IMG/VR virus record: IMGVR_UViG_3300021085_000019
Coordinates: 1 to 64,000 of that record
Origin: a virus
Length of the DNA stretch: 64,000 bases
Direction: 5' to 3' (one strand)
Positions within the stretch are counted from its first letter, which is position 1; each line of letters starts with the position of its first letter. Below the pieces are notes generated by a model. That model worked only from the letters and a program-made list of their open reading frames with translations. It was not told where the DNA came from and did not search any database. A program made the position numbers and the translations under genes. Positions 5,771 through 39,273 of the stretch are shown in pieces.

Positions 5771-5782
5771 TAGGAAATAAAA

Positions 5783-12478: not shown

Positions 12479-12706
12479 ATGCCTAGAAAAAAGAAAGTTG
12501 AAAATAATCCTAGCTTAGTGAGGGATACCACCAATCAAGCTATTATAAATACTAATACAGATGCTTTTGTCGCAAGACGAGCTCAGATTAAAGCAATAGA
12601 AAACAAAATAAAACTTGATGAGCAGCAATCGATTGATATAGATAATCTTAAGAGCGATGTTGCTGACATTAAGAAAATGTTACAGAAACTAATTGGTGGG
12701 AAATAA
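12479..12706 (+). CDS. Small coiled-coil protein typically found after the VrlC-like gene
   Basis: LVRD...AIINTN motif and heptad C-terminus (LKSDVADIKKMLQKL); GAGG SD upstream; stop overlaps next ATG. Confidence 0.75.
   Translation: MPRKKKVENNPSLVRDTTNQAIINTNTDAFVARRAQIKAIENKIKLDEQQSIDIDNLKSDVADIKKMLQKLIGGK
12544..12551 (+). promoter_or_regulatory. T4-type late promoter (probably for the 2830-aa fibre)
   Basis: Exact TATAAATA inside the 75-aa ORF. Confidence 0.55.
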
Positions 12707-21198: not shown

Positions 21199-21210
21199 AG
21201 GAATTGAGGA

Positions 21211-21561
21211 ATGGCGATATATTCTAACTTAACAGTAGATCAAGGTTCAACATTTTCAGTCGAGATTGACGTAACAGACTCGGCTGGAGATCCATTAAAC
21301 CTTACTGGTTATCAAGTTGCAGGGCAGATAAGAAAAACTTATAGCTCTAATACATTTACCAATTTTGCTGCATCTGTTTACAACAATATAGGTGGAGTAG
21401 TAAAAATAGAATTAAGCGCTGCTACTACGAACGCGATGAAAGCTGGAAGATATGTCTACGATGTAGAAATATCAAGAACTATTAATAGTGTTGATGAAGT
21501 TACTCGTATAGTAGAAGGGCAGTTAGAAGTTAAACCAGGAGTTACTAAGGTAATAGAATGA
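21211..21561 (+). CDS. Small virion adaptor protein (BppU N-terminal-like beta-sandwich)
   Basis: NLTVDQGSTF...NLTGY...QIRK.Y...AGRYVYDVEI...RIVEGQLEVKPGVT pattern seen in fibre-associated ORFs of T4-like phages. Confidence 0.65.
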   Translation: MAIYSNLTVDQGSTFSVEIDVTDSAGDPLNLTGYQVAGQIRKTYSSNTFTNFAASVYNNIGGVVKIELSAATTNAMKAGRYVYDVEISRTINSVDEVTRIVEGQLEVKPGVTKVIE

Positions 21562-21803
21562 CTATAAAGGCTAAGATAAGGCAGACCGGAAAGTTAATAG
21601 GTAAGGCACAGACACAGAATGAAATTGTAGCTACTTCAATGAAAATCCAAGCTGGTGAATTAAGGCTTGGAGATTTGGCCGATGTTGACGCATCTCAACA
21701 AGCAGATGGAACTATGATGATTTACGATGCTGCATCAGGCACATATAAAATTACAACTCAGATTGAAAATGAGAATCTGAATATAATAGGAGGCACGTAC
21801 TAG
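21558..21803 (+). CDS. Small fibre-associated linker protein ending IIGGTY
   Basis: ATGA overlap with previous ORF; LGDLADVD...DGTMMIYDAASG.Y fibre-type motif. Confidence 0.7.
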   Translation: MTIKAKIRQTGKLIGKAQTQNEIVATSMKIQAGELRLGDLADVDASQQADGTMMIYDAASGTYKITTQIENENLNIIGGTY

Positions 21804-23476
21804 TGGCTAATTTGACAAGAATAAAAATCTTAACTACGGGGTCAACCACTACCGCTCCTAGTAATCTAAAAACTGGTGAGTTAGCGTACTCCTACGTAGC
21901 TGGAACACAGGCAAATAATGGTGACAGATTATATATCGGAACAGGAGCTGAAAGCGGAAATCCTGCAGTTGCATCAACAGTTGATATTATTGGCGGTAAG
22001 TATTTTACTAGCTTATTAGCTCATGAGCACGGAGTACTAACTAATAATAGTGCAGTGATTGTTGGACCAACTGGAAAGGTTGATCAATTTAATGTAGACA
22101 ATTTAAAATTAGATGGAAATTCTATTACTTCTACCAACACTGATGGTAATATAGTAATTAATCCAAATAATAATGGTAAAACCGTATTGCATAATACGTT
22201 TATTGGTGGGACAAGTGTAAGTTTAGAAGAATTTATTTATGATACAGTTGGAGGAGCAGTAACTGCAGGGACAGGAATTACTGTTACTAACGACGATGCT
22301 GGTAACTCATCAACAGTTTCTATTACAAACACTGGAGTATCTGCAGGAACATATGGTTCGGCTTCTAAAATTCCAGTACCTGTCGTAAATGCTCAAGGTC
22401 AAATCACATCTATTACTGATGTTCATCTTCCAGACTTAGCATTTTCTGGTGATTCTGGCACAGGAGCAATTGATCTTAATACTGAAACGTTGACATTTTC
22501 TGGCGATACCGGAATTACTACAACAGTAAGTGCAAACGATGTTAATATTGATTTAGACGATACTACTGTTAGTGCGGGTCAGTACGGTTCAGCAACTCAG
22601 ATTGCACAGTTTACAGTCGACGTTCAAGGTAGGTTAACACAAGCTGCCAATATTAATATTGCTACAACTCTTAATATCGCCGCGGATAGCGGGACAGATG
22701 ATGGAGTTGCTCTATTAACTGATACGCTTACTATTGCTGGTACAACTAACGAAATTGAAACATCTGTTACAGGCGATACAATTACAGTCGGACTACCTAA
22801 CAACGTAGAAATTGGCAACAATCTTGTTGTTGGTGGCAACTTAACAGTTGAAGGTACAACTACTACTGTCGAATCTACTATTATTGCGCTATCTGATCCT
22901 GTTATTGCTCTTGCAGACGATACTACATCAGTCACTTCAGACGGATTTGATCGTGGTGCTAGATTTAAGTGGGGTAATGGAACAGCCGTTAAAACTGGTT
23001 TCTTTGGTTTTGACATTCAAACAGAAAGATTTGTATTTACTAAAGACGAAACAGTTACGTCCGATGATTTCTCATCGCCTTGGGGTGACGCTGAATTTGG
23101 AAATGTTTATGGTACTGGTGCTGACTTTGGTAATGTACAAGTTGGATTAGGCGACAATCAGACAATTACTACTGCATCTGGAAAACTAGTTCTAGACGCG
23201 TCAACCAATGAAGTTGAAGTAAATGCTTTCCTAGATGTTAATGGTAATGCTGACGTAAGTGGTACTTTAAATTCTACAACCCTCACTCTTACAAATGACC
23301 TCGCTGTTACTCATGGTGGTACTGGATTAAGTTCTTTCACCGGCAAAGCGGTGTTTATTTCTAACAATGCTGGAACTGCAGTCTCATTCCTAACTGGAAC
23401 CGAAGGTAACATTATACAATTTAACAATCAAGGTGAACCTATTTCATCAAATATAATTGACGGCGGAGAATATTAA
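21803..23476 (+). CDS. Fibre protein (557 aa) with Mtd_N-like N-terminus and C-terminal IDGGEY
   Basis: GTG start with GGAGG SD; TAPSNLKTGELAYSY N-terminal motif; AGTYGSA...VNAQGQIT repeats; GNLTVEGTTTTV module; LAVTHGGTG. Confidence 0.8.
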   Translation: MANLTRIKILTTGSTTTAPSNLKTGELAYSYVAGTQANNGDRLYIGTGAESGNPAVASTVDIIGGKYFTSLLAHEHGVLTNNSAVIVGPTGKVDQFNVDNLKLDGNSITSTNTDGNIVINPNNNGKTVLHNTFIGGTSVSLEEFIYDTVGGAVTAGTGITVTNDDAGNSSTVSITNTGVSAGTYGSASKIPVPVVNAQGQITSITDVHLPDLAFSGDSGTGAIDLNTETLTFSGDTGITTTVSANDVNIDLDDTTVSAGQYGSATQIAQFTVDVQGRLTQAANINIATTLNIAADSGTDDGVALLTDTLTIAGTTNEIETSVTGDTITVGLPNNVEIGNNLVVGGNLTVEGTTTTVESTIIALSDPVIALADDTTSVTSDGFDRGARFKWGNGTAVKTGFFGFDIQTERFVFTKDETVTSDDFSSPWGDAEFGNVYGTGADFGNVQVGLGDNQTITTASGKLVLDASTNEVEVNAFLDVNGNADVSGTLNSTTLTLTNDLAVTHGGTGLSSFTGKAVFISNNAGTAVSFLTGTEGNIIQFNNQGEPISSNIIDGGEY

Positions 23477-23493
23477 TTCAAGGTTTCTTCTAG

Positions 23494-23501
23494 TATAAAT
23501 A
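23494..23501 (+). promoter_or_regulatory. T4-type late promoter
   Basis: Exact intergenic TATAAATA. Confidence 0.8.
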
Positions 23502-23508
23502 GAATAAA

Positions 23509-23571
23509 GGTTTATATAAACCATTAGAATTTTATACAGCTCTATATAGAGATTGACATAGGAGAAGCCTA
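23509..23571 (+). promoter_or_regulatory. Structured leader: two perfect TATATA-centred palindromes plus an SD-sequestering hairpin
   Basis: GGTTTATATAAACC (23509-23522), CTCTATATAGAG (23540-23551), TAGG-AGAAG-CCTA (23559-23571) before the TTG start. Confidence 0.55.
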
Positions 23572-23573
23572 AA

Positions 23574-26500
23574 TTGGCCAGAAAGACAGACATTAGACTA
23601 AGGCGTTCTAATACAGAAAACGCTATACCAACTCACACCAATTTGAATGATGGCGAACTCGCCATGAACACCTATGACGGTGCTCTTTATTTCAAAAAAT
23701 CTGATAACACGATAATTACTGCACACGATAATACTATTTTACATCTTAATAGTAATACAAGTCGTGTCGGTATTGGAACAACATCTCCGGCCGGTAATCT
23801 TCATGTCAAATCTGTAGGTGATGTCGGCGATGCTTTACTTATCGTTGAAGCAGATGCAGATAATAATGTTGAAGGCGATAATCCAAAAATTGAATTAAGA
23901 CAGGATTCTGGTTTTGTTACAGGCGCTATGTATTTAGAAGGTAATGCCGCCTCACAAGCAACTAACTCATTACAAAACGGTTTTTTACTAGACGCAAAAG
24001 GAGCCTCAAGCGATGGAGGCACAATACAATTTGCTACTGGTGGATTAGCCGCTAATCAAAGTGGCGGACCGACCAATAGTGCTGTGAGAATGACAATTCT
24101 ACGGGACGGAAACATAGCCATTGGTCAAATCACATCTAGCCATAAACTTACAGTAGCAGGAAATACTTTCTTATCAGGCGATAACAGACATGTATATTTT
24201 GGTGGTAATAATACTTTTATTGGAGAAAATTCTAGTTCTAGTAAACTAGAATTAAGAGGCGGCGGGTCTAGCTCATCAGAAACAGTTTATGTCAATAGTA
24301 ATGGAGCAGTCGGTATTGGGATAATTGCACCTACTGAAAAGCTTCATGTTGTTGGTAATGCAATTTTTCATTCTGGTGCGGCATACGGCGATTTAGTCGT
24401 TGGGCGTGGCTCCAACCAAGAAATTAAATTATACGTTAGTGACGCAAATACACAAATTATTGGATATCAGGATAGTGACAGTGATGGAAATCATTCTTTC
24501 GATATAATCAGAGAATTTGATGGTGCTGGTGAAAATGATTTTACTATTAGAAAGGGGTCAGGATCAGTACAATTTGATATTAATAAAGATGGTAATATTA
24601 CATTTAATAATGCATTTACTTTTCCAAATGCAGATGGACAAGCTGATCAGATATTAAAAACAAATGGAAGTGGTACCTTAACTTGGGCAAATGATTCTGG
24701 TGGTGGATCTTCAGTTAGTCTATCCGATAGTGATAACGACACTCTTATTCAAGTAGAAGAAAGCAATGACGAAGATATAATTAGATTTGATGTTGCGGGT
24801 TCTGAAGTTGCTCAAATGACTGACGACGGCCTTATATTGAATGATGGATATAATTTTGAAGGCGATGTTATTGGAGCTATTAAATTTAAGGCACAAGCTG
24901 GTGAAGCTTTAACAAAGGGTGATGTAGTTTATATATCTGGTATATCAGGTAATACAACAGTAGTATCAAAGGCAGATGCAAATGACGCTGCTAAAATGCC
25001 GGCGTTTGGATTAGCTGCAAGTACAGTAAGTTTAAATGCTGCGGTACAAATTGTCACATTTGGTACTTTACAAGGAATAGACACATCATCATATTCAGAA
25101 GGTGATGAACTATACGTTAATGTATTAGCCGGCACACTCACAGATAGCGCTCCTACAGGTTCTAGCTCTGCGTTACAAAAAATAGCAAAGGTCACTCGAT
25201 CAGATGCAAGTGCTGGTTCAGTAAAAGTTTCAGGAGCTGGAAGAACAAACGCTACTCCTAATCTTGATGAAGGTAAGATATTTGTAGGTAATGCTTCTAA
25301 TAAGTCTGTTCAAGGCGATGATACACTTCATGTTGATATGGCTAATAGCCGTGTTGGTATTAATAAAGCTTCTCCCGACCGTTCACTGCATATTGATGGA
25401 ACTGTTAGAATCGACGGGGGAACAGGAGTAGTTTCGACTGGTGTTTTAGAAGTAATGCAAAATGGCGATACTGCCAATAACGCAATCGCTCTAACAAGCA
25501 GTAATGCCGTTTCAACTAGGATATGGAAAAATGGTAGTGGAACATTTTTTATTGGATCGTCTAGTGCTAATAACGCTTTTCAACAATTAGTAAATGGCAA
25601 TACTACTATCAATGCTCAAGAGTTTACTATAGCACATGCCAACCCAACTCTTATATTAAAAGACACAACTGACGACGATGATCATAATATATTATTTAAA
25701 GACAGCTCCGATAATACTATTGCTAAAATAAGTACAGCTTTACCAGTAATGGATGATTTAAATATTGGTACTGTTACTGCTAGGGAATTTAATCTATTCA
25801 CAAATAACACCACCGCGATGTCAATCGACACATCTCAAAACTCAGTATTTGCAGGTGATGTTTCTATTTTAACCGGCACAAGCGCTAAGCAAGCTAGTGA
25901 TATGTTATATATTGGCGGATCCGGTTTAGGTAGCACTGATGCAGCAATTTATCTAGGAAATGCCGGTGACGGAACTGGATATGGATGGAGATTTTTCTAT
26001 AAAGGTTCTGGTGATGGTAATGAAAATAGATTAATTATTAGATCTGAAAATTCCGGATCGCCAGTCGATGCATTGTCGTTTACCCAAAATGGCCAGGCAT
26101 TATTCGGCGATAGCATTGTAATGGGTAATAGTGAGAAGATATACTTCTTATCAAATGGTGACGCGAATACTGGATCATCGTATTGGTATAGAGCTGGTGG
26201 TAATGCTACTAGATTGCTTTATAGAGATAATGTTTTAGTGTTTGATGCATATCAAGATCATTCTGCTGAATTTAGAAACTCTAACGATGATATTATATTT
26301 AAAGTCACTCCAAATGCAACTGCTACTAATAGTGCAACAATAGTTAGTAATGGTAACTTTTCTATCGCTAATGGAGCATTAAATATTGGAGGATCTGAGC
26401 TTTCTGACAATAATAGAAATGTAACAACTAATAATTTAACTGTTGGTGGTAATTTAACAGTTAATGGTTCTGTGACAACATTAAACACTGCCACGCTTAC

Positions 26501-29500
26501 CGTTGATGATTTAAATATTACAATCGCTGATGGAGCCGCTAATGCAGCTGCCGCAAATGGTGCTGGAATTACGGTTGATGGTGCAAATGCTACAATTACA
26601 TATACATCAGCCCAAGATGAATGGAACTTTAATAAAAATGTAGTAATCGGCGGAAAGGACACAACTGCTTCTTTCCCACTTATGATAAGATCTGATTCTG
26701 CGCATAAGGGACTTCATATAGAAGAAAATGCTGGCGCCGAAAGTTGGCAGATGGGCGTTAGTGTTACTGGCGATTTACACTTTTATAATTCTGGTTCTAA
26801 TACTGCTTCTGTTACTTTTGAAGATAGTGGTGATGTTGGTATTGGGGTATCAGCACCAGGCCAAAAATTAGATGTTGCAGGTAATGTTCGAGTTACAAAT
26901 AACGCAGCATTTATGGGAACAAATGTCGCTGGAAGTTCTAGGTCGCTTGTGCATTTGGGCAATGATAATATTCTAAGAATAAAGGGTAACGATTCAGAAG
27001 GTTCTGCTAATGTAATGTCTATGATTGCTGGCGGTAGTGTTGGTATTGGAACTACTGCGCCAATCGCTAAGCTTGATGTGAACGGAAGTATTAATGTAAA
27101 ACAAGCTACTTCTATTGCATTAGCTCAAGACACTTCTAGTACTGTTGCTATTCTAATTCCTAGAGGTTTAAAAATTGCAAGTAATACCACAGGAGATTAT
27201 ATTAGAAATATAATTGAACACGGTGGTACGACCGGTAATGGTCCTATTAATATTGGCCAACAAGGAACGGCCATTATTACTGATATTAATTTATATCCTG
27301 GAAGTTCAGGAAAAATGCAGGTTTTCTCTGATGGAACTTCAACAGCTAAAGTTGTAATTGATTCCGCAGGTAAAATGAGCATAGGAAATAATAATCCAGA
27401 ATATAATCTTGATATTCGTGGCGATAGCCCAGTTTTAAGAATTGCCGATGACAATTTAAATAACGTAGAAGATGCTGCAGCAATTTGGTTTGGTGAAAAT
27501 GATACAAGTGAATCCAGAGGGGCTGGTATAACATATGACGGAGCTAATAACGCTTTACATTTTAGAACGAGTAATAACGGTGCAACTTTAACAGATCCAT
27601 TTGATTCAGAAAAACGTATGACAATACTTGAAACAAATGGTAATGTCGGAATAAACATAACAGACCCAGATGAAAAATTAGAAGTCAACGGATCTATTAA
27701 AGTAGACTACAGTAGCACAAATGCTAATATGTTTAAGCAAGGAAACGCTTTTGGTGGTGGGTCTATTACTCCTTTTAATAACAGTGGACATTTTGTTTTT
27801 AATGTAGAATATACAGCTGGAGATTCTGATTACATCTGGAGAGTAAACGATACAACTGAGCTGATGAGACTTGAAGAACAAGGACAGCTTGGTATCGGAA
27901 CGAATAACCCAACTGAAAGACTGCACGTATCTAATATAACCGGTGGTGAAACTAAAATACGAATCGATTCACTAGACAATGCTAGAAACAATTATATTGG
28001 TATTACTGGACATGATAACTTAGTATTGTCTGCAGATGCTGGTCAAGAGGGCGCGGACAGTTCTATTAGATTTAATGTTGATAATGCAGAAGTTGGTAGA
28101 TTTACGCACCATGGCAGATTTGGAGTTGGAGGAATTATTCCAGCTACTACTTTAGAAATTTCTGATAGTGCGCCTAAACTAAGAATTACAGATACTAGAA
28201 ATATTTCATGGACCGTAGGTGATACTATGGCGTCAATTGAATTTGATAGTGACGATTCATCAGGTGGAGCAGGGACCTCAGCTGAGCCTAGAGCGGCAAT
28301 TACAATGTATGCGGCCAGCACTTTTGGTTCATCAACAGGCCTAGCCTTCTATACTAAGTCTGATACTACTGACTATCCAACTAGGCAAATGGTTATTACT
28401 AACGACGGCAAGGTTGCTATCGGTACTTTAACAGCAAATGCTAAGCTTCATGTATCAGATGCGTCTGCACCAACATTTAGACTTTCAAGAACTGGCACAG
28501 GTCAAATTTGGCAACAGTCTATTGATTCAAGCGGTAGATTTCTTTTACAAGAAGGAGCAAGTGAAGGCGGTACAAAATATACTAGATTCGCAATAGATGA
28601 TGATGGAAACGTAGGTATCGGCACAGGTGATCCAGGAAGGAAATTGCACGTTGAAGGGGACAACAATACTGCTATAACTGTTGTATCACCAAATACAAAC
28701 TATGCTCAATTAGCTTTAGGTGATACAGATGATGATAATTATGCTCAACTAATATTAGATAATGCTACTAATAAACTACAACTTCAAAATGGCGGCGGAG
28801 GAGTTGTAGGCGAAAGAGGAATTACATTAGATAGTTCAGAAAAAGTCGGTATTGGAACGTCTTCTCCAAGAGAAGAGCTGGAAGTTAATGGTACTATATT
28901 CGCAACTCCGGCCAGCTATGCATCAAATCAGAATACGTATGTCTTAAAAGTAGGAGCTACTAATAATACTGCCTGGGATGGAATGGGCTTTAAGTTGAAG
29001 TCTTTATCTGGTGGATCGCCGTATCTAAGTGTTATGGGAAGTCCTTCTGTTGAAACAATGGTCTGGAAAAGCCAGCATGTAGGCATGGGAATTGCTGATC
29101 CATCTGTAAGCGGATCTAGAACTACTTTACACATTGATAATGTAAGTAACGGCTCAGCAATTAGACTATCACAAAATGACTCAGGGGCGTTATTTAGATA
29201 TGATACGACTGCTGGCTTAAAAATAGGAACCATTTCTACTGAAAATTTAACACTTGAAACTGACGATGTCGCTAGGTTGGTAATTGCTGCAGATACCGGT
29301 AATGTTCTTATTGGCACTAATACAGTACAGCCTGAAAAGCTTTATGTAAATGGTGCTACAAGAATTGTCGGCCAAGGCAATACGCAACCTGCGTTTGAAG
29401 TATTTACTAGTCAAGATAATGACGCCACTGATGATTACAATGCTATGGTTATTGATTATAATGTTACCGGTAGCCAAACGATTGTTTCTGATGATACACT

Positions 29501-31382: not shown

Positions 31383-31386
31383 TATG

Positions 31387-31394
31387 TATAAATA
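31387..31394 (+). promoter_or_regulatory. T4-type late promoter
   Basis: Exact intergenic TATAAATA. Confidence 0.8.
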
Positions 31395-31433
31395 GTATTA
31401 TAATTTAACCGTGGACAGTGAAACGGAGTACAC

Positions 31434-34400
31434 ATGGCAACAGATCATAACTTTAAGGTCAAAAACGGCCTTGCCGTAGAAGGCGCAGATTTAAAAATAA
31501 CCGGGGACGGAAACGATACTCGAATAGAATCAGGTGGAGAAATCAGATTTCGACCTGAAGGTTCTTCATCGAATAAAGTCAGAATTACGTTAAACGAACT
31601 TGAAGTCTCAGGTTCCATTGACGCATCTGCAGATCTAAAAACAAATAACACAACTCGTATTAATTCTTCCGGAGGCTTTACTCTAGGCAGTGGATCCATG
31701 ACTGGTCCGGTTACAATTTCACCTCCAAGTGGACAAAATACCGTATTAAATCTAAACGGAGCATTAGATACGTTCTTAGAAAAGGACACTGGTAGCCACT
31801 TTTATATTGCTAATAATGTTGAAGATAAAGACATAAAATTTAGAATTAATAACGGTGGAACTCAAAAAATTCCATTAACAATACACGGACAATCTGGCAC
31901 AGTAGATTTAACTGGCGATTTAGATGTGTCTGGAGATCTCGCAGTTTCCGGCGATTTAAATATTACAGGTGATATCAATTCAGTTAGCACTACTGATTTG
32001 GATATTACAGATAAGACTATTACATTATCAAAGGGATCAACTAGTTCTTCAACCTCTGATGGCGCAGGTATTATTATTGAAGGTCCGTCACCTGCACCTG
32101 AACTAAAATACCAACATTCGAATGCCAGATGGACGTTAAATAAAGAAGTATTTACTCCGTCAGGATTTATGATTGGTACAACATCTACTGATGTTGGATT
32201 GATGAGAAATAGTTCAGGCGTATTTGATTTCCAAGCTCAATCAGGTCGTGAAATTTCATTTAGTAATGCTACTAATGGTGAACATGTAAGAATTGATGCT
32301 GACGGCAAAGTTGGTATCGGAACAGATAACCCAGGTGTTAATTTACAAATTAATGATAGTACTACTACTCAAACTAATTCCGAATTTAGAATTTACGGAT
32401 ATGATACGGGAACTAGTGATGCAAAATATGGTAGAATTTTTATTGATAGTGGCGGTAATTTAAATGTTGCGGCTCAGGATAGTTATTTAATATTGACCTC
32501 AGGAAATTATATCCAAGCAAATGATACGCTCTACGCATTAGAATCTATATTAATGCGCAACAACAAAAAGATTCAGATGGCTGGTAGTGATGGTGGCTTT
32601 AATGGAGTAATGAATGTTAGCACAAGTGACGTCGTTCAAGTTGGAGGTGTTAGTGGTTGGGGTGGTACAATTGGCCAGCTAGCTCTTTATAGTAATGATG
32701 GCGAAGCTGTTCGTATAGATGAAAATCAATGGGTCGGAATAGGAACTAATGATCCATCTAGAAAGCTTCATGTTTATCAGAACAATGGAACTAATGTAGT
32801 TGCAGCATTTGAGTCAAACGACGCGCAAGTGTGGATTGATTTACGTGACTCTAATAGCACTAGTTATGGCGGAAGTGCTTATGGATGTTTACTGGGTCAT
32901 GATCCTGTTAACGATCATTTGTTTATAGTTGCTGACGGCAACGTAACTAAACATTTTGTAGTAGATAATACAGGAAATGTTGGTATAGGAACTAGCGACC
33001 CTAAAACAGATTTGCACGTATTAGGAGCTTCGGGAAATGCTCAAGCTACAACTGTCCGATTAGGCGGCGATGGCGCAAATGGAAATCATACTCCTAAGCT
33101 AGAATTTACAGAAGGTACAACCGGCACAAGCATGAATTTTGGATTTTCGCTTTTAGCCGATGGCAATAGCAGTAATAATTTCCTTATAAGGAATCATAAT
33201 AGTAGCACTGGCGGAGCTGTTGCAATTTGTGTTGACCGTGCAACAGGATTTGTTGGAATAGGAAATAATTCGGGATCACCTAAGTCCAGGCTTGATATTA
33301 ACTCAAGTGGAGATAATTTTGTATATTTAAATTATACAAGAAGTACTGGTGGAACAAATGAAAAGTATTGGAGATCTGGAATTGAAACAAATCACAGGTT
33401 TGCAATTGGTAAAGTTAACGACGCATATAATAGCTTATCCGAGTATCTAACAATACTTAGTGGTGGTAATGTTGGTATTGGCATTAATAATCCATCTGAA
33501 AAATTAGAAGTCAATGGAAATATAAAGGCTGATACATTAAAAATCGATAATATAGTATTTGAAGATGAAGATGGATCTCCTACTGATAGTATTACCGCAT
33601 CTACGGAATGGGATGGAACAAATTCAACACTTTCATTCGAAGGTTCGGCTGGACAATTATTTGCCATTAGTAATAACTTAACTGGAACTATATTCTCTGT
33701 AAATGACATTTCAGGTATTCCAAGTATTGAAGTTGAAGATGACGGAGAAATTCGTTTTGCTGAGTTTGGTGGATATGTAAAAATCGGACATGACTCATCA
33801 GTTCCCGGCCAAGAAGCGCCTCTCATCGTAACTAAAACACAGGGAACTTTACCACCGGCTCCAGACACTCCAAGTAAAAACGTTGCAGTGTTTCAAAATA
33901 ATTCAACTGCCGGAGAATATTCAATTATTTCGATTATTGGTGGTAATACCGGTAGATCATCTATTCATTTAGGTGATACTGATGACGATAATGCTGGAGC
34001 TATATACTATACACATAACGATAACAAATTACATTTTAGAACTAATAGTTCCGGTGATGATGTTCAAATAGAAAGTGATGGCACGTTAAATATTTCAACC
34101 GGTGATTTACGTTTAGGCGTTGGTAAAAAGTTTTATATGGGCGGTAGTAATCATACATATATCAGCGAAGACATCGATGACAGATTACGATTCTTCACTG
34201 GTGGCCAAGAGTTTATGAGATTCACTGAGGCTGGAACAGACACAGTAAACTTCTACACGCCAGTTTCTTCATCAGGTACTATTACCGCTCCGGCTCTAAA
34301 CGGTACGGATAGTACAAATAATGTCGGGTTTAATATTGCAACAGACAGCACTAGTAACGGTAGAGCATTTATAATTTTAGATAGTGATTCAACCGATGGC

Positions 34401-37400
34401 GTTGGAGTTGGAAGTGATTATACGTATATTGGTTCAGATTATGCTTCCTTTAGAGGCTGGGTAAGTGCCGGACAAAATGGTGCTTCAGGCGGCGTAAGGG
34501 TTTCTGACGGAAGTGGCACAGCTCCTACATTGTCATTTGCTGATAGAACTGACACTGGTTTATGGGCTCAAGATTATAGTACCGGCGAAGACAGAGTAAT
34601 GATAAGTACTGGAGGTTCTATTAGAGCTGAGGTTCAAAGTGCGGGTGTTTATTCATATGCAAATGTATATGCTGTTAATGAGTTTAGAAATATTACTAAT
34701 ACCTGGAAAGCAACTACGTCTCAAGTTTCCCAAGATTTTCAGTTTATAGGTAACACAAGCAATACTCCTGTGACAATAATGCATTTAGATACCGGCAACG
34801 CAAACGTTGGTATTGGCACGACTAGTACAGATTCTACGTATAAACTTCAAATTGCTGGAGCTCAGCGTACTACAGTTACTGGTTCTAACACGGTGGCCGG
34901 TTGGTTTGAAAATACAGACGATCATGATTATAATATTAGAATTGTACCAAAGCTTTCATCGGGAGGTTATAATCCAATAACTTCTACTGGAGACTCTGGA
35001 ATAATTTTCTCAACCGATAACGACCATACTAATGCTGTTGATAATAATGGATTAATTATTGCGCCACATAGTGATGAAAAAGGTGGGTTGTATATTGCGG
35101 AAAGCGGTAACGTTGGTATTAATGTAAGAAATACTGGGTCTCAGGCTTTATGGGTAGAAATTCCAACTGCGCAGCAAAGTGATACAAATCTAGTAGCATA
35201 TTTTAAATCTCACAATAATAAAGCGTGTATTCAAATTACAGATAATGATACAACTGCAGTTGTATCAGCTGAAGGCACTAGGATGTCTTTAGGTGGTCAA
35301 CAAGGTGTTCATGCAAATAACGTAAATATTAACACTTCAAATGCAAATACAGGAATAGGTATTATTACTGGTAGTGATGGTGATTTAAGCTTAAATGTGC
35401 CGCGGCTTCATGTAAAAGCTGATACTCAGCAGGGTGTTAATGCGTTAGTCGCTAGATTTGAAGCTGGTAATGATAATGATAATACCGGCGCAGCAATTCT
35501 CATCAACCATTCAAATGATAGAGGATTGTTAATTGAAGGCGGTAGATCTAACTCGGATAGAGCAATAGCACATTTGGGTCTTGTCACTTCAGGTGGTGAT
35601 CACAATCGCGTTTTGACAATTAGACAAGACGGAAGTAATTACTGGGCAGGTATTGGCACAGAAGTTCCTGAAGCGCTTTTACACGTAAAGGCTGCTAGTG
35701 GAACTACAGCAACTATAAGAATCGAAGGCGGCAGCAACACTGTTTCTGCAAGCGGCGAAATAAATTCTCAACTTGACTTTGGTTCAAATGATGGTTCTGT
35801 AAACAGCGCTGGCCAAGTTGGAGGTAGAATAGCAAGTGTTACCGAAAATACAAACGGCGCTTACACTGGAATGGCGTTTTATACCTTCACACAAAGCGGG
35901 TCTCCTGATTTAGCTGAGAAAATGCGAATCAGGTACGATGGTAGTGTTGGAATTGGAGAGGCCTCTCCAACAACTGGAAAGCTTGTAGTAAATGGTAATA
36001 CTAATCAGTATACACTTAGACTAAATGGTGGAACTTCATCCGGAACTAGCTATGGTGCTAGGATACGTGCCGGAACTAATACTTCTGATTATGGATTAAT
36101 AGTTGAAAATACAAGCGCGGGCCCGCAGTTTGCTGTTAGAGGTGATGGCCATGTAGGTATTGGAACTAATGACCCTATCGATCAATTTCATTTAAAAAGT
36201 TCCAGTGGTGATGCAAGGATGGTTCTTGAATCTCCAGTAGATTCCGATTGTGAAATTAAACTTTCAGAGAATGGAACGGTAAAATTCACTGTTGGATTTA
36301 ATGCAGCAGATGATACATTTAGAATAGGAACTACTAACGTAGACACAAACCCAAGGATGGCTATCACTTCGGCCGGTAAAGTTGGATTTGGTAGAGAAAA
36401 TCCGCATAATAAATTTCATGTAATTGGCGATGGACGTTTTGAAGGAAACCTAATGACGGGAAGTGCCTCGTATACTAACGTTCCCGCTAAGGCAATTCAT
36501 ATTAAAGATAGTGGCGATAACGCATGTCTAAGAATAGAAGACTCTACTGGCAGTAATAAAGTTTATGATTTTAGAGTAAATACTGGAGCTGGTTTAAAAA
36601 TTATTGACCAAGGGACAGTAGGAACGGGGAATAACGTAAGATTTAGAATTGAAGACGATGGTAAGGTTGGTATTGGCAACTTCCCAACAACTAATAACAA
36701 TTCTAATAATCATGATTCAATTGCTCCTGCGGCAAGGCTTCACGTATATGATACTGGTGGCGGTGGAACAGAAAAGCCATTAATGATATTAGAAAATTAT
36801 ATCGGCGATCATGGTACTACACCTTCTAAAGTAAGTATTGATATAAGAAACCAAGACAGTAATAATAATCCTAACAGAGTATCATTAAAAAATGTCACCG
36901 TCAATTCTACGACTTATGGAGTAAACGATGAAGCTGCTGCTCACTTTGTTATTGGACTAAGTAAAGGTGGAAATGTTATAGAAAGAGCAATGTTCCATGC
37001 TGACGGTCATATGTCTATTGGTACTTCAATGTTTAATCCGTATACTCACGTGAACACCGGATCTTACTTTAAACCAAAAACAAATGTAACTAGTAATAGA
37101 ACTTTATCAATCGGGGGTGGTGATGCAGGCGCTGATATTAGTTTAGTTTCTAGTACTACATCTGATGATGGACACGTTGGTGGATTATTTTTTACTTCTA
37201 CTGCTGGTGCAACTGATGCGCATAAACAATTAGCCGGTATAGATTGTGTATATGATAAACATGCAACTAGTGACGCGGTAAGTGGTGGTCATTTAAGATT
37301 CTTTACTAAACCTACTGGATCTGGTATTAATAGTCCAAGAATGTGGATACACCAAAATGGTAATATCTACATGAAAAATCAGAGTGGTTCAGATGTGGTA

Positions 37401-38012
37401 GCATTTGATGCACAAAACTCTAGATTTAACTGTGATTGGTTTGGTGGTTATCAATATGCAGCCAATTCGTTCCTAGATTTTGATAATGACTCACCTGGTA
37501 GTAGTGGATCTAATGGTGTTCATTTGGCGTCAGTTGCTGGTATGGACTTTACTATTGACTCAAATAACAATGGGACAGCTGATGAATTTACCTGGCGCGT
37601 CAACTCGCCTACAGCGTCAACCGGCACTGAGTTGATGAGCTTAGACAGCGACGGTGATTTAACAGTTACTGGAGCTCTTGCCGCAACAACAAAATCATTT
37701 GATATTGAGCATCCAACAAAAGAGGGTAAGAGATTACATCATGGTGTTCTTGAAGGACCCGAGCATGCAGTATATATTAGAGGAAAAACAAAAGAATCAA
37801 TCATTCAATTGCCTGAATATTGGAATGGGCTAGTTCATGAAGATACTATAACTGTTCAGCTTACAGCAATTGGCCGGTCAGAATATCTTTATGTCGACGG
37901 CATTAAAGATAACACTGTAAGTATTTCTAATGACACTGAATATTTTTACTTTATACAAGCCGAGCGTAAAGATGTCGAAAGGTTTGAGGTAGAATATGAC
38001 GACGTCGACTAA
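31434..38012 (+). CDS. Giant fibre protein (2192 aa) with about 15 GxVGIG repeats and a C-terminal non-S74 chaperone-like domain
   Basis: N-terminal NFKVKNGL; LSFEGSAGQLF module; C-terminal TKSFDIEHP...LHHGVLEGPEHAVYIRG...LPEYW..LV...TVQLT...AERKDV. Confidence 0.85.
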   Translation: MATDHNFKVKNGLAVEGADLKITGDGNDTRIESGGEIRFRPEGSSSNKVRITLNELEVSGSIDASADLKTNNTTRINSSGGFTLGSGSMTGPVTISPPSGQNTVLNLNGALDTFLEKDTGSHFYIANNVEDKDIKFRINNGGTQKIPLTIHGQSGTVDLTGDLDVSGDLAVSGDLNITGDINSVSTTDLDITDKTITLSKGSTSSSTSDGAGIIIEGPSPAPELKYQHSNARWTLNKEVFTPSGFMIGTTSTDVGLMRNSSGVFDFQAQSGREISFSNATNGEHVRIDADGKVGIGTDNPGVNLQINDSTTTQTNSEFRIYGYDTGTSDAKYGRIFIDSGGNLNVAAQDSYLILTSGNYIQANDTLYALESILMRNNKKIQMAGSDGGFNGVMNVSTSDVVQVGGVSGWGGTIGQLALYSNDGEAVRIDENQWVGIGTNDPSRKLHVYQNNGTNVVAAFESNDAQVWIDLRDSNSTSYGGSAYGCLLGHDPVNDHLFIVADGNVTKHFVVDNTGNVGIGTSDPKTDLHVLGASGNAQATTVRLGGDGANGNHTPKLEFTEGTTGTSMNFGFSLLADGNSSNNFLIRNHNSSTGGAVAICVDRATGFVGIGNNSGSPKSRLDINSSGDNFVYLNYTRSTGGTNEKYWRSGIETNHRFAIGKVNDAYNSLSEYLTILSGGNVGIGINNPSEKLEVNGNIKADTLKIDNIVFEDEDGSPTDSITASTEWDGTNSTLSFEGSAGQLFAISNNLTGTIFSVNDISGIPSIEVEDDGEIRFAEFGGYVKIGHDSSVPGQEAPLIVTKTQGTLPPAPDTPSKNVAVFQNNSTAGEYSIISIIGGNTGRSSIHLGDTDDDNAGAIYYTHNDNKLHFRTNSSGDDVQIESDGTLNISTGDLRLGVGKKFYMGGSNHTYISEDIDDRLRFFTGGQEFMRFTEAGTDTVNFYTPVSSSGTITAPALNGTDSTNNVGFNIATDSTSNGRAFIILDSDSTDGVGVGSDYTYIGSDYASFRGWVSAGQNGASGGVRVSDGSGTAPTLSFADRTDTGLWAQDYSTGEDRVMISTGGSIRAEVQSAGVYSYANVYAVNEFRNITNTWKATTSQVSQDFQFIGNTSNTPVTIMHLDTGNANVGIGTTSTDSTYKLQIAGAQRTTVTGSNTVAGWFENTDDHDYNIRIVPKLSSGGYNPITSTGDSGIIFSTDNDHTNAVDNNGLIIAPHSDEKGGLYIAESGNVGINVRNTGSQALWVEIPTAQQSDTNLVAYFKSHNNKACIQITDNDTTAVVSAEGTRMSLGGQQGVHANNVNINTSNANTGIGIITGSDGDLSLNVPRLHVKADTQQGVNALVARFEAGNDNDNTGAAILINHSNDRGLLIEGGRSNSDRAIAHLGLVTSGGDHNRVLTIRQDGSNYWAGIGTEVPEALLHVKAASGTTATIRIEGGSNTVSASGEINSQLDFGSNDGSVNSAGQVGGRIASVTENTNGAYTGMAFYTFTQSGSPDLAEKMRIRYDGSVGIGEASPTTGKLVVNGNTNQYTLRLNGGTSSGTSYGARIRAGTNTSDYGLIVENTSAGPQFAVRGDGHVGIGTNDPIDQFHLKSSSGDARMVLESPVDSDCEIKLSENGTVKFTVGFNAADDTFRIGTTNVDTNPRMAITSAGKVGFGRENPHNKFHVIGDGRFEGNLMTGSASYTNVPAKAIHIKDSGDNACLRIEDSTGSNKVYDFRVNTGAGLKIIDQGTVGTGNNVRFRIEDDGKVGIGNFPTTNNNSNNHDSIAPAARLHVYDTGGGGTEKPLMILENYIGDHGTTPSKVSIDIRNQDSNNNPNRVSLKNVTVNSTTYGVNDEAAAHFVIGLSKGGNVIERAMFHADGHMSIGTSMFNPYTHVNTGSYFKPKTNVTSNRTLSIGGGDAGADISLVSSTTSDDGHVGGLFFTSTAGATDAHKQLAGIDCVYDKHATSDAVSGGHLRFFTKPTGSGINSPRMWIHQNGNIYMKNQSGSDVVAFDAQNSRFNCDWFGGYQYAANSFLDFDNDSPGSSGSNGVHLASVAGMDFTIDSNNNGTADEFTWRVNSPTASTGTELMSLDSDGDLTVTGALAATTKSFDIEHPTKEGKRLHHGVLEGPEHAVYIRGKTKESIIQLPEYWNGLVHEDTITVQLTAIGRSEYLYVDGIKDNTVSISNDTEYFYFIQAERKDVERFEVEYDDVD

Positions 38013-39273
38013 TCAAAAAATAGTTACCAGGGGATTAAAATACGCCTGGGATATGAATAATAAAAAGTCGTGGAAAGGTAAACCGACTACTAACTTATTA
38101 AGTAATCCTGATTTTAGTAATGGAACTACTGGCTGGACTCTAACTTCAAGGTCGTCATCGACACACAACGATACTATGGAAATTAGATACGAGCCTAATG
38201 GTACACCGTATCTTAACATGCATTTGGAAAGAACTTCCGGCAGCGGGAATAGTTGGTCTCACTTAAGACAAGGCTCTGTATTCTCCTCGACTGGAAATTA
38301 TGCAACTTCAGGACAATTTAGAGTTAATGCGTATTCGGTATCTAGTGGGAGCACATTGTCACAGTTTAGAGGGTCCGCCTTTTATAATGATTGGTGGTCA
38401 GCAAATAGACCTATTAGAAATATATCTGCAAGTGATATAGGTCAGGGATGGTTGGATTTAGAATTAAATAGAGATTACGTGTCCTCATATACTGATAGTA
38501 ACGGAACAGTTTATAATTTAGATGGGTGTTTTGAATTTTATACTGGAAGTATGCCAGCCGTTGGAGATCTTATTGATATCGATATAAGATTAATTCAAAT
38601 AGAGTCAGGCACTTTTGCCACGCCTTTTGTGAATGGCACTAGAACGAATACGAACTCATTACGCGATATGACTTCTAGTAATACTCTTACACTAAGCGCG
38701 CTTACATATAATTCTGACGGGACTTTTGAGTTTGATCAAAGCGCTTCAAATAGAATTACATCTGATAAACTTATGAGAACTCTTATGGATAGTGTAGACA
38801 CTTATACGTATTCATGTGTTATAAAAAGAACAGCGTCTATGCCTGACGGTCACGGGATTGCTTTAGGACTTCAAGGATATAACTGTGGTATTCTTTTAAA
38901 GAACGATGGTATTATTGCAAGTAATTGGTATAATAATGGGTCGGGGTATTCTGTTAAACAAAGCGGAACTGCAACTTTAGCAAATAACACTTGGGCCCAT
39001 GCGACTATGACTTGGAATTGTAGAGAAAACATGAAGCTGTATATTAATGGCGAACTAACACATACTGTATCGGTTTCTGCTCAAACTGGTAGTAGCAATA
39101 ATGAATGGTATGGAGTAACGTCTGCACACAGTAATCCAATAATGGCTGGCGGTGGTTCGAGTCATTGGGAAACAAATTCTGTAATAAAAGAAGCTCAGGT
39201 GTATGATAGAGAGTTAAGTGCAGAAGAAGTAAAACAAAATTTTATTGCGGTGAGAGGTAAATACGGTCTATGA
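37996..39273 (+). CDS. LamG/concanavalin A-like lectin-domain virion protein with inserted carbohydrate-binding-like domain (paralogue 1)
   Basis: IVTRGL..AWD..N.KSW; TWAHATMTW...KLYINGEL; VYDRELSAEEVKQNF...RGKYGL. Confidence 0.8.
   Translation: MTTSTNQKIVTRGLKYAWDMNNKKSWKGKPTTNLLSNPDFSNGTTGWTLTSRSSSTHNDTMEIRYEPNGTPYLNMHLERTSGSGNSWSHLRQGSVFSSTGNYATSGQFRVNAYSVSSGSTLSQFRGSAFYNDWWSANRPIRNISASDIGQGWLDLELNRDYVSSYTDSNGTVYNLDGCFEFYTGSMPAVGDLIDIDIRLIQIESGTFATPFVNGTRTNTNSLRDMTSSNTLTLSALTYNSDGTFEFDQSASNRITSDKLMRTLMDSVDTYTYSCVIKRTASMPDGHGIALGLQGYNCGILLKNDGIIASNWYNNGSGYSVKQSGTATLANNTWAHATMTWNCRENMKLYINGELTHTVSVSAQTGSSNNEWYGVTSAHSNPIMAGGGSSHWETNSVIKEAQVYDRELSAEEVKQNFIAVRGKYGL

What the first reader, a model, noticed from the sequence alone, without database searches (positions are those of the whole stretch)
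21211..38012. Apparent plug-and-socket daisy chain linking successive fibre proteins
Seen in sequence: the 81-aa ORF ends LNIIGGTY* and the next gene (557 aa) starts with an Mtd_N-like domain (RIKIL...TAPSNLKTGELAYS). The 557-aa protein ends NIIDGGEY* and the next gene (2602 aa) again starts with an Mtd_N-like domain (IRLRRS...PT..NLNDGELAMNT). The 2602-aa protein has no chaperone or obvious receptor tip but ends in a ~100-aa beta domain (31053-31382), and the next gene starts with a short NFKVKNGL peptide. Established: in Bordetella phage BPP-1, Mtd is mounted on a fibre end via its N-terminal region. Inference: gene order mirrors assembly order, with each C-terminal cap docking the N-terminal cap of the next trimer. 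That would build one very long or branched appendage (adaptor 116 aa > 81 > 557 > 2602 > 2192 aa) from swappable segments, a docking code I do not know to be described.
Basis: partly seen in the sequence, partly recalled or inferred. Interest (0 to 1): 0.85.

Follow-up and report, generated by a model that had tools for sequence, protein, structure and literature searches.

The report
Serially joined phage tail fibre genes
A marine T4-like phage encodes four consecutive fibre proteins whose ends match the connectors that join phage T4's long tail fibre. They probably assemble end to end into one very long appendage, which reuses a known principle in a new order rather than being a new kind of system.

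Summary
The 81-aa and 557-aa proteins end in ..IIGGTY* and ..IIDGGEY*. The 557-aa and 2602-aa proteins start with a conserved ~45-aa domain. The 2602-aa protein ends in an eight-stranded beta domain, and the 2192-aa protein starts with NFKVKNGL.

The serial-docking reading is supported by computation only, with two corrections.

1. The N-domain is the T4 gp37 N-terminus type (hhalign 96%, E 1e-9), not Pfam Mtd_N. T4 gp36 (ends ..DFGYY*) is known to bind the gp37 N-terminal region.
2. The 2602-aa C-domain resembles the C-terminal domain of T4 gp9 most closely (Foldseek E 4e-6, Z 14.6). That domain is the long-fibre socket. The NFKVKNGL start aligns weakly with the gp34 N-terminus.

So all three joints look like T4 joints, iterated and in a different order from T4.

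The plug-then-socket gene pairs recur in about 60 non-redundant metagenomic loci. They also occur in myo-, sipho- and podoviruses (T4, Acinetobacter AC4, S-CBS2, Vibrio 1.293.O, Limnohabitans DC31).

A 3+3 complex model of the 557-aa C-terminus with the 2602-aa N-terminus scored 0.90, against 0.03 for the best control. The last eight residues contact residues 1-13.

The proximal anchor and the 2602-to-2192 link remain inferred. I rate this a new variant of a known kind, of moderate-to-high interest.

The parts
21186..21193 (+). T4-type late promoter motif TATAAATA ahead of the 116-81-557 gene block
   Evidence: 19 of 20 TATAAATA matches in the window lie on the + strand. This one sits 18 nt upstream of the 116-aa start.
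21211..21561 (+). 116-aa Ig-like protein, a homologue of the T5 p132 / DT57C LtfC fibre-anchoring collar protein
   Evidence: phrog_3304 at 7.6e-24 and phrog_1084 at 6.8e-28. PDB 7qg9 p132, E 2.4e-4, residues 16-112 aligned to 26-139. Its stop overlaps the start of the next gene.
21558..21803 (+). 81-aa small fibre-base protein carrying plug 1 at its C-terminus
   Evidence: conserved in Melnitz, P-HM1, Mosig, DC31 and about 60 IMG/VR loci. The N-terminal IKAKI strand and the C-terminal motif are both conserved.
21777..21800 (+). plug 1: terminal peptide LNIIGGTY-COOH (class consensus phi-[NETI]-G-G-[TEQN]-[FY])
21803..23476 (+). 557-aa middle fibre segment with a socket at its N-terminus and a plug at its C-terminus
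21803..21937 (+). socket 1: N-terminal domain (..RIKIL..APSNLKTGELAYS..), the class found on middle fibres
23450..23473 (+). plug 2: terminal peptide NIIDGGEY-COOH (class consensus I-D-G-G-T-Y). It shares D(-5), G(-3) and an aromatic at -1 with T4-type gp36 ends.
   Evidence: In the complex model, residues 550-557 and 534-539 form the interface.
23494..23501 (+). late promoter motif TATAAATA ahead of the 2602-aa gene
23574..31382 (+). 2602-aa giant fibre segment (TTG start): socket 2, then about 2400 aa of repeated VGIGT..P..KLHV beads, then a gp9-C-like end domain
23574..23717 (+). socket 2: T4 gp37 N-terminus-type domain
   Evidence: hhalign 96.4%, E 1.2e-9. BLASTP 33% identity over 48 aa, E 3e-7; tblastn hits to gp37 of Straboviridae; residues 1-13, 17, 19, 23-24 and 30 lie in the predicted interface.
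31059..31379 (+). eight-stranded beta domain at the extreme C-terminus, similar to the C-terminal (long-fibre socket) domain of T4 gp9
   Evidence: profile search, top PDB hit gp9 168-269, E 0.081; pLDDT 89.5. Foldseek 1qex_A E 4.3e-6, TMq 0.60. Z 14.6.
31387..31394 (+). late promoter motif TATAAATA ahead of the 2192-aa gene
31434..38012 (+). 2192-aa fibre protein with a gp34-like N-terminal peptide and a conserved C-terminal domain of unknown role (phrog_17490/28536)
31434..31508 (+). N-terminal NFKVKNGL peptide, aligned in register with the T4 gp34 N-terminus (REFRAEDGLDAGG)
   Evidence: hhalign 59.7%, E 8.9e-5, 20 columns; the motif recurs after gp9-C-like genes.

Best explanation
The block 21211-38012 encodes the parts of one serially assembled trimeric fibre, built with the same kinds of joints that hold the T4 long tail fibre together.

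Proposed order, N-terminus proximal throughout:
1. A p132/LtfC-like Ig protein (116 aa) anchors the 81-aa protein.
2. [quoted passage not shown]
3. The C-terminal peptide of the 557-aa fibre (..IIDGGEY) docks onto the N-terminal strand and domain of the 2602-aa fibre. This is a T4 gp36->gp37-type joint.
4. The 2602-aa fibre ends in a gp9-C-like socket domain, onto which the gp34-like N-terminus of the 2192-aa fibre attaches coaxially. This is a T4 gp9->gp34-type joint.

Two distinct plug/socket classes (phi-[NE]-GG-x-F with ..GELAYS, and IDGGTY with ..GELALN..DGKLY.K) would fix the order and stop the middle segment from polymerising with itself.

What is shown: the motifs, the homologies, the synteny and a passing complex model for step 3.

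What is inferred: physical binding, steps 1, 2 and 4, the site on the virion, and the role of the two classes.
For: Termini and ORFs.

The socket is the gp37 N-terminus type:
- hhalign 96.4%, E 1.2e-9.
- BLASTP E 3e-7.
- tblastn of 55 aa hits the 'long tail fiber distal subunit' of Acinetobacter, Klebsiella and Enterobacter T4-like phages.

T4 precedent:
- T4 gp36 ends ..QDFGYY* and gp37 starts MATLKQIQFKRS..GELAINL.
- Neither gp36 nor the gp37 N-terminus matched any PDB chain, so the complex pass is unlikely to come from memory of a solved structure.

Complex model (3x557C + 3x2602N):
- ipSAE 0.90/0.91/0.90, best of 3 controls 0.03.
- This mark was reached by 58 of 80 solved complexes and by 2 of 110 mismatched pairs.
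- The runs share >=98% of contacts; partner pLDDT 91.
- Interface: 557 residues 550-557 and 534-539 against 2602 residues 1-13, 17, 19, 23-24, 30.

Synteny in 68 non-redundant loci:
- 66 middle fibres end in the plug motif.
- 54-59 of 62 upstream small ORFs end in the plug motif.
- About 43 of 48 downstream genes start with the socket.
- Third genes range from 64 to 2602 aa.

The same pairs occur in other lineages: S-CBS2 (462>374>372), Vibrio 1.293.O (174>239>682), DC31, AC4 and Metamorpho gp36>gp37.

Two plug and socket classes.

The 116-aa protein is homologous to T5 p132, which anchors the fibre N-terminus by strand augmentation (PMC10038345, PMC10713586).

2602->2192 link:
- gp9 is the top profile hit, E 0.081.
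- Foldseek E 4.3e-6, TMq 0.60; Z 14.6.
- The long tail fibre attaches coaxially to the gp9 C-terminal domain (PMC3004832).
- NFxVKNGL against the gp34 N-terminus: hhalign 59.7%, E 8.9e-5.
- An NFxVKNGL gene follows in 31 (strict) to about 37 of 57 loci.

Late promoters lie before each unit.
Against: - No experiment: every binding step is inferred from a model, from homology or from synteny.
- The loci used for the co-occurrence counts are related by descent, so the Fisher p of 1e-87 is not an independent test. Only about 6 lineages are independent.
- The plug could not be linked to the gp36 C-terminus by profile comparison; only D-x-G-x-[YF]-COOH is shared.
- Some socket-bearing fibres have no plug gene next to them (S-SKS1, S-CAM7, S-SCSM1, S-T4, DSL-LC02). 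S-SKS1, S-CAM7 and S-T4 each carry one small plug-ended ORF elsewhere, immediately upstream of the neck gene gp13, and DSL-LC02 carries two plug-ended ORFs elsewhere.
- For the 2602->2192 link, the gp9 profile hit is marginal (E 0.081), and the fold is also shared with C-terminal domains of tailspikes (Z 9.5-11) that are not known to dock anything.
- The gp34 alignment covers only 20 residues.
- About 20 of 57 loci have another gene after the C-domain gene.
- The specificity of the two classes was not tested.
- No fused (Rosetta-stone) form of the 81-aa protein was found.
Confidence: 0.6

Rival explanations
1. The chain is real for 81->557->2602 but ends there. The gp9-C-like beta domain is the distal tip (a receptor-binding or capping domain, like tailspike C-terminal domains). 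The 2192-aa fibre attaches elsewhere on the virion, and its position after the 2602-aa gene is only conserved gene order.
For: - The fold is also shared with C-terminal domains of Acinetobacter and Klebsiella tailspikes (Z 9.5-11).
- The gp9 profile hit is only E 0.081.
- The gp34 similarity covers 20 residues at 59.7% probability.
- About 20 of 57 loci lack an NFxVKNGL gene directly after the C-domain gene.
- The 2192-aa gene has its own late promoter.
- The C-domain is always at the extreme end of proteins of 154-3211 aa, as a tip domain would be.
Against: - gp9 and its KP1 homologue are the two best structural matches (Z 14.6 and 12.2), and gp9 is also the top sequence-profile hit.
- The NFxVKNGL gene follows even in loci where the C-domain is only 34-48% identical.
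- The alignment with gp34 is in register.
Confidence: 0.22
2. The fibres attach independently. The N-domain is a generic anchor to the baseplate or neck, and the C-terminal GGx[FY] peptide is a folding or trimerisation cap or a tip. Adjacency reflects inherited gene order.
For: - Socket-type fibres occur without an adjacent plug gene in S-SKS1, S-CAM7, S-SCSM1, S-T4 and DSL-LC02.
- The co-occurrence counts are confounded by common descent.
- No profile link between the plug and the gp36 C-terminus.
Against: - In T4 the homologous N-terminal region is the gp36-binding end of gp37, not a baseplate anchor.
- The same plug-then-socket order appears in myo-, sipho- and podovirus lineages with otherwise unrelated fibre bodies.
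- The same terminal pentapeptide follows at least four different preceding folds.
- The complex model places exactly these termini in contact, scoring 0.90 against 0.03.
- The 'orphan' genomes still encode a plug-ended small ORF.
Confidence: 0.1
3. The N-domains are true Mtd_N domains, and they work as Mtd does in BPP-1 rather than as a T4-type joint.
For: - 4 of 35 socket-2 relatives hit PF18454 weakly (best E 0.0014).
- An atlas cluster with 90% Mtd_N members appears at score 0.85.
- Mtd sits at the end of each BPP-1 fibre (PMC3567102).
- Bbp9, encoded upstream of mtd, ends ..ADLGGIA*.
Against: - The window's own N-termini have no PF18454 hit at E<=10.
- hhalign against the BPP-1 Mtd N-terminus gives 1.2% probability, against 96.4% for T4 gp37.
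- A profile search of PDB sequences does not find Mtd.
Confidence: 0.08

Closest known systems
T4 long tail fibre distal half: gp36 (trimer) bound to the N-terminal region of gp37
   Same: - The socket domain is homologous.
- The plug gene lies immediately upstream of the socket gene.
- The plug protein ends in D-x-G-x-aromatic-COOH (T4 QDFGYY, AC4 LDYGTF, Metamorpho QDFGNY).
- Gene order follows assembly order.
   Different: - Here the joint is used twice in a row, through a middle protein that carries both ends.
- The plug carrier can be as small as 70-117 aa and is not detectably homologous to gp36.
- No gp35-like hinge is seen.
- The plug is GG rather than [FY]G.
- The segments reach 2602 aa.
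T4 gp9 ('socket protein') with the gp34 N-terminus attached coaxially to its C-terminal domain
   Same: - The C-terminal domain of the 2602-aa protein has the gp9 C-domain fold, and gp9 is its top sequence-profile hit.
- The next gene starts with a peptide that aligns with the gp34 N-terminus.
   Different: - gp9 is a 288-aa baseplate protein whose N-terminus binds gp7. Here only its C-domain is present, fused to the far end of a giant fibre.
- The joint would therefore lie distal to the gp36/gp37-type joints, the reverse of T4.
T5 p132 / DT57C LtfC collar with LtfA and LtfB
   Same: - The 116-aa protein is a sequence homologue of p132.
- In T5-like phages this Ig protein anchors the fibre N-terminus by beta-strand augmentation, and in DT57C a second fibre (LtfB) hangs on the first.
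   Different: - T5 is a siphovirus, and its collar is a dodecamer around the tail-tip p140 ring. No p140 equivalent or ring was examined here.
- LtfA has a helical N-terminus, not the 81-aa type.
BPP-1 Mtd mounted at the end of the tail fibre (Pfam Mtd_N)
   Same: - A receptor-binding trimer is carried at the end of another fibre.
- The N-terminal motif has a similar style (phi-x-phi-R-[RG]..GE/RE).
- A few relatives graze PF18454.
   Different: - The window's sequences do not match PF18454 or the Mtd N-terminus.
- Bbp9 ends ..LGGIA*, not [DN]GGx[FY]*.
Branched or chain-like receptor-binding assemblies (T4gp10-like branching in Klebsiella/CBA120-type phages; rope-and-dimer fibres of podophage A1002)
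   Same: Several gene products are combined into one appendage through conserved docking modules.
   Different: - Branching uses gp10-like platforms on a first tailspike (from memory).
- The A1002 fibres are dimers threaded on a rope protein (PMC13730344), not trimer-to-trimer end joints.

Membership tests
T4 gp36-gp37-type fibre joint | The downstream protein starts with a domain homologous to the gp37 N-terminal (gp36-binding) region | tested here: met
   hhalign 96.4%, E 1.2e-9. BLASTP 33% identity over 48 aa, E 3e-7. tblastn hits to gp37 of several Straboviridae.
T4 gp36-gp37-type fibre joint | The upstream protein's C-terminus is homologous to the gp36 C-terminus | tested here: inconclusive
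   hhalign of 48 plug ends against the last 60 aa of gp36 found nothing. Only the terminal pattern D-x-G-x-[YF]-COOH is shared.
T4 gp36-gp37-type fibre joint | Physical binding of the upstream trimer to the downstream N-terminus | not testable with these tools
   Model only: ipSAE 0.90 against best control 0.03. That mark was reached by 58 of 80 solved complexes and 2 of 110 mismatched pairs.
Pfam PF18454 Mtd_N | A match to the family HMM at the curated threshold | tested here: not met
   No hit for either N-terminus, even at E<=10. 4 of 35 relatives hit below threshold, best E 0.0014. hhalign against the BPP-1 Mtd N-terminus gives 1.2%.
T5 p132 / LtfC collar protein | Sequence homology over the whole Ig domain | tested here: met
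   PDB 7qg9 p132, E 2.4e-4, residues 16-112 aligned to 26-139 of 140. phrog_3304 'L-shaped tail fiber protein assembly', 7.6e-24.
T5 p132 / LtfC collar protein | Forms a dodecameric ring that clamps the fibre N-terminus | not testable with these tools
   Known for T5 and DT57C. Not examined here.
T4 gp9 (long-fibre socket protein) | C-terminal eight-stranded beta domain | tested here: met
   Foldseek 1qex_A E 4.3e-6, TMq 0.60. VIA Z 14.6, rmsd 6.6, 125 aligned, gp9 residues 138-284; the KP1 homologue gives Z 12.2. Profile hit to gp9 168-269, E 0.081.
T4 gp9 (long-fibre socket protein) | N-terminal coiled coil and middle domain that bind gp7 in the baseplate | tested here: not met
   The match covers only the last ~125 residues of the 2602-aa protein. 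Its N-terminus is gp37-type. It is therefore not a gp9 orthologue.
T4 gp34 N-terminus (gp9-binding end) | N-terminal peptide homologous to gp34 residues ~5-25 | tested here: inconclusive
   hhalign with 27 sequences: 59.7%, E 8.9e-5, 20 columns in register. With 4 sequences: 8.9%.

The most novel reading that the evidence does not exclude
Tailed phages of all three morphotypes share a small set of orthogonal end connectors: at least two plug/socket classes of the gp36C/gp37N type, plus the gp9C/gp34N type. These connectors can be strung in any order. In this phage four gene products (81 + 557 + 2602 + 2192 = 5432 residues per chain) would form one fibre roughly twice the length of the T4 long tail fibre. 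The distal pieces would be swappable (third genes range from 64 to 2602 aa), and the class of the terminal pentapeptide would dictate assembly order.
Probability: 0.35. Interest if true: 0.78.

Novelty: new variant of a known kind. Interest (0 to 1): 0.62.

Why it matters
- It assigns a role and a partner to several giant 'hypothetical structural proteins' that dominate the genomes of marine T4-like phages of cyanobacteria, SAR11 and methylotrophs.
- It gives a concrete, testable model for the T4 gp36-gp37 joint: the last ~8 residues of the upstream trimer pair with the first ~13 residues of the downstream trimer. This joint has been known biochemically for decades, but neither partner matched any chain in the PDB copy searched.
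- It offers a simple rule for reading fibre architecture from sequence: a gene ending in [DN]GGx[FY]* followed by a gene starting like gp37.
- If the plug/socket classes are orthogonal, they would be natural parts for building chimeric fibres in laboratory phages.

Tried and rejected
- Pfam on whole proteins and on termini: no Mtd_N and no other family.
- PDB profile search with the socket alignment: nothing, and Mtd was not found.
- megablast of 21000-24500 and tblastn of the 81-aa protein against the phage collection: no match.
- Search for fused forms of the 81-aa protein among longer proteins: none, which is weak evidence. One internal socket was seen in a 1382-aa protein of L054.
- hhalign of plug ends against the gp36 C-terminus: nothing.
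- tblastn of the 2192-aa N-terminus (50 aa) against phages: no match.
- PDB sequence search with the 2192-aa C-terminal 199 aa: nothing meaningful.
- BLASTP of the 2602-aa C-domain against the free-standing 110-aa protein of L013: not significant.
The context of C-domain homologues was taken from IMG/VR loci instead.
- The single complex-prediction job went to the 557->2602 joint. The 81->557 and 2602->2192 joints and the swapped-pair controls could therefore not be run.
- The literature searches found no description of the terminal peptide motif. That does not prove there is none.
Full report
**What is in the window.**
The window is part of an 83.6-kb IMG/VR viral contig. It carries the structural module of a T4-like marine myovirus. 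Homologues of gp25, gp6 and gp8 lie upstream, and gp13, gp14, gp15, terminase, sheath, tube, portal and capsid genes lie downstream.

Between them lie very large fibre-like genes. The finding covers five of them, all on the + strand:
- 116 aa (21211-21561)
- 81 aa (21558-21803)
- 557 aa (21803-23476, GTG start)
- 2602 aa (23574-31382, TTG start)
- 2192 aa (31434-38012)

T4-type late promoter motifs (TATAAATA) precede the 116-aa, 2602-aa and 2192-aa genes. The first three genes overlap at their stop and start codons.

**Checking the observation.**
Among the window's 33 ORFs, only the 81-aa and 557-aa proteins end in GGxY*. Only the 557-aa and 2602-aa proteins begin with the phi-x-phi-[KR][KR]S...P...L..GE-phi-A motif.

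The label 'Mtd_N-like' does not hold for these sequences:
- Pfam gives no hit, even at E<=10.
- A profile of the domain does not find Mtd in the PDB.
- hhalign against the BPP-1 Mtd N-terminus gives 1.2% probability.
- Four of 35 relatives do graze PF18454 (best E 0.0014), so a remote link cannot be excluded.

**What the N-domain is.**
It is the N-terminus of T4 gp37.
- hhalign of eight such N-termini against T4 gp37 residues 1-80 gives 96.4%, E 1.2e-9.
- The 2602-aa N-terminus is 33% identical to gp37 over 48 residues (E 3e-7).
- A 55-aa query finds the 'long tail fiber distal subunit' of Acinetobacter, Klebsiella and Enterobacter T4-like phages.

In T4, gene 36 lies directly upstream. gp36 ends ..QDFGYY* and gp37 starts MATLKQIQFKRS...GELAINL. 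[quoted passage not shown]

Neither gp36 nor the gp37 N-terminus matched any chain in the PDB copy searched. A 2026 T4 preprint shows the gp37 N-terminus only as a map.

**Recurrence.**
A four-gene module was first seen in Methylophilales phage Melnitz, Prochlorococcus phage P-HM1 and Pelagibacter phage Mosig. It consists of:
- a ~111-aa Ig protein;
- a 70-117-aa protein ending in the plug;
- a 436-1011-aa fibre with socket and plug;
- a gene starting with the socket.

Counts in 80 IMG/VR loci found through the 557-aa protein, reduced to 68 non-redundant loci with a complete middle gene:
- 66 middle genes end in the plug motif, plus one IDCGTY variant.
- 54 of 62 adjacent upstream small ORFs do so by regex, plus five S/C variants.
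- 36 of 48 downstream genes match a strict socket regex, and about 43 by inspection. Two further loci have a socket gene after one small coiled-coil ORF.

The third gene ranges from 64 to 2602 aa, with unrelated bodies and ends.

These loci share descent, so the Fisher test is not independent evidence. The same order does, however, appear in unrelated phages:
- siphovirus S-CBS2 (462 aa ..SGGSF* > 374 aa socket ..IDGGTF* > 372 aa socket);
- Zobellviridae podovirus Vibrio 1.293.O (174 > 239 > 682-aa pectin-lyase tailspike);
- Limnohabitans myovirus DC31;
- S-CRES3;
- S-B43.

The terminal pentapeptide follows at least four different preceding sequence types. That pattern fits a short linear docking tag.

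**Two classes.**
- Plugs of the small proteins are phi-[N/E/T/I]-G-G-[T/E/Q/N]-[F>Y].
- Plugs of the middle fibres are I-D-G-G-T-Y (D in 59 of 61).
- Sockets of the middle fibres read ..IRIKRSS..NP.TL..GELAYS.
- Sockets of the third genes read ..LKKSS....P...DL..GELALN..DGKLY.K.

T4 gp37 belongs to the second socket class, and T4-type gp36 ends share D(-5), G(-3) and an aromatic at -1 with the second plug class.

I infer that the two classes set the order of assembly and prevent self-polymerisation of the middle segment. This was not tested.

**Complex model.**
Three copies of the last 110 residues of the 557-aa protein were modelled with three copies of the first 90 residues of the 2602-aa protein, each with its own alignment.
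- ipSAE was 0.90, 0.91 and 0.90. The best of three controls scored 0.03.
- The tool's mark was reached by 58 of 80 solved complexes and by 2 of 110 mismatched pairs.
- The runs agree in at least 98% of contacts, and the partner's pLDDT is at least 91.
- The interface is formed by residues 550-557 (NIIDGGEY) and 534-539 of the 557-aa protein with residues 1-13, 17, 19, 23-24 and 30 of the 2602-aa protein.

This supports binding but does not show it. The calibration used single-chain pairs and other alignments.

**The proximal end.**
The 116-aa protein is a homologue of T5 p132 (PDB 7qg9, E 2.4e-4 over nearly its full length; phrog_3304). In T5 and DT57C this Ig protein forms the collar that clamps the N-terminus of the side fibre by strand augmentation. 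In DT57C a second fibre hangs on the first.

By analogy, the conserved N-terminal IKAKI strand of the 81-aa protein would insert into the 116-aa protein. This step, and the site on the virion, are inferred.

In S-SKS1, S-CAM7 and S-T4 the socket-bearing fibre has no plug gene beside it. Each of these genomes still has one small ORF ending [LI]DGG..[YF]*, and it lies immediately upstream of the neck gene gp13. From memory, T4 has wac at that position. A neck or collar location is therefore as possible as a baseplate one.

**The distal end.**
The last ~125 residues of the 2602-aa protein occur at the extreme C-terminus of proteins of 154 to 3211 aa (3786 clusters at E<=0.001). Where the start is intact, most of these proteins begin with the socket. 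A 160-aa protein in L007 consists of just the socket plus this domain (46% identity).

- A profile of 53 such domains has T4 gp9 residues 168-269 as its top PDB hit (E 0.081, marginal).
- The AF2 model (pLDDT 89.5, eight strands) has gp9 as its top Foldseek hit (E 4.3e-6, TMq 0.60).
- VIA-align gives Z 14.6 for gp9 and 12.2 for the KP1 homologue, ahead of tailspike C-terminal domains at Z 9.5-11.

[quoted passage not shown] The N-termini of 27 NFxVKNGL-start proteins align in register with the T4 gp34 N-terminus (REFRAEDGLDAGG; 59.7%, E 8.9e-5, 20 columns).

In 57 non-redundant loci with the C-domain gene, the next gene starts with NFxVKNGL in 31 by strict regex. The count is about 37 when variants and loci with inserted genes are included.

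**Verdict.**
The best reading is a serial fibre built from T4-type joints used in a non-T4 order, with a middle piece that carries both connector ends. The principle is known from T4, so this is a new variant of a known kind.

The literature searches did not turn up any description of the following:
- the terminal peptide motif and its two classes;
- the iteration of the joint;
- a gp9-type socket at the end of a giant fibre;
- the spread of these pairs across morphotypes.

Confidence is about 0.75 for 81->557->2602 and about 0.5 for the extension to the 2192-aa protein.

Noticed in passing
L180, L181, L183 (S-SKS1, S-CAM7, S-T4): In three cyanophages whose socket-bearing fibre has no adjacent plug gene, the genome's only ORF ending [LI]DGG..[YF]* is a small ORF whose stop overlaps the start of the neck gene gp13. 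This hints that plug-bearing base proteins may sit at the neck.
   Followed up: partly
window 12706-21198 and 44527-49059: The 2830-aa and 1510-aa proteins both end in a conserved ..EAIKEL..-type coiled-coil tail. Their C-terminal regions hit 'tail fiber / long tail fiber distal subunit' PHROGs. They look like fibres with a C-terminal intramolecular-chaperone-type end and carry neither plug nor socket.
   Followed up: no
window 37996-41740: Three tandem genes (425, 378 and 445 aa) follow the 2192-aa gene. The first starts 17 nt before the 2192-aa stop. They hit phrog_8510 and phrog_3545 weakly and could be accessory or tip proteins of the same appendage.
   Followed up: no
window 37650-38009: The C-terminal ~115 aa of the 2192-aa protein (FDIEHPTKEGKRLHHG...) matches phrog_17490 and phrog_28536 strongly, but no Pfam family and no PDB sequence. 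Its role is unknown.
   Followed up: partly
window 31362-31379 and P0009-P0158: The gp9-C-like domain ends in a strongly conserved hexapeptide, [RC]-H-[SC]-[IL]-T-[VT]-COOH (for example RHCITV x27 and CHSITV x23 among 150 representatives). It may be a further terminal contact motif.
   Followed up: no
L054:12493-16641: A 1382-aa protein carries a socket-1-type domain internally (at residue ~701) and ends in the plug. It is the only fused form seen, in which a 700-aa segment precedes the socket in one chain.
   Followed up: no
window 23574; L007:2413, L011:11785, L075:11574, L076: The socket-2 genes of this clade keep a TTG start codon (LARKTD.., LARQSD.., LARNTN.., LATQLV.., LAVKTE..). This suggests deliberately low translation initiation of the giant segment.
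   Followed up: no
L084 (BPP-1) 4599-6125, minus strand: Bbp9, the putative tail fibre encoded directly upstream of mtd, ends ..NIGLADLGGIA*. This is a loose resemblance to the plug, in a different register.
   Followed up: no
L007:2968-5444: Two enzyme-like genes (192 and 632 aa) are inserted between the 160-aa socket+gp9C-like gene and the NFxVKNGL-start fibre gene. Their ends resemble 2OG-Fe(II) oxygenases.
   Followed up: no
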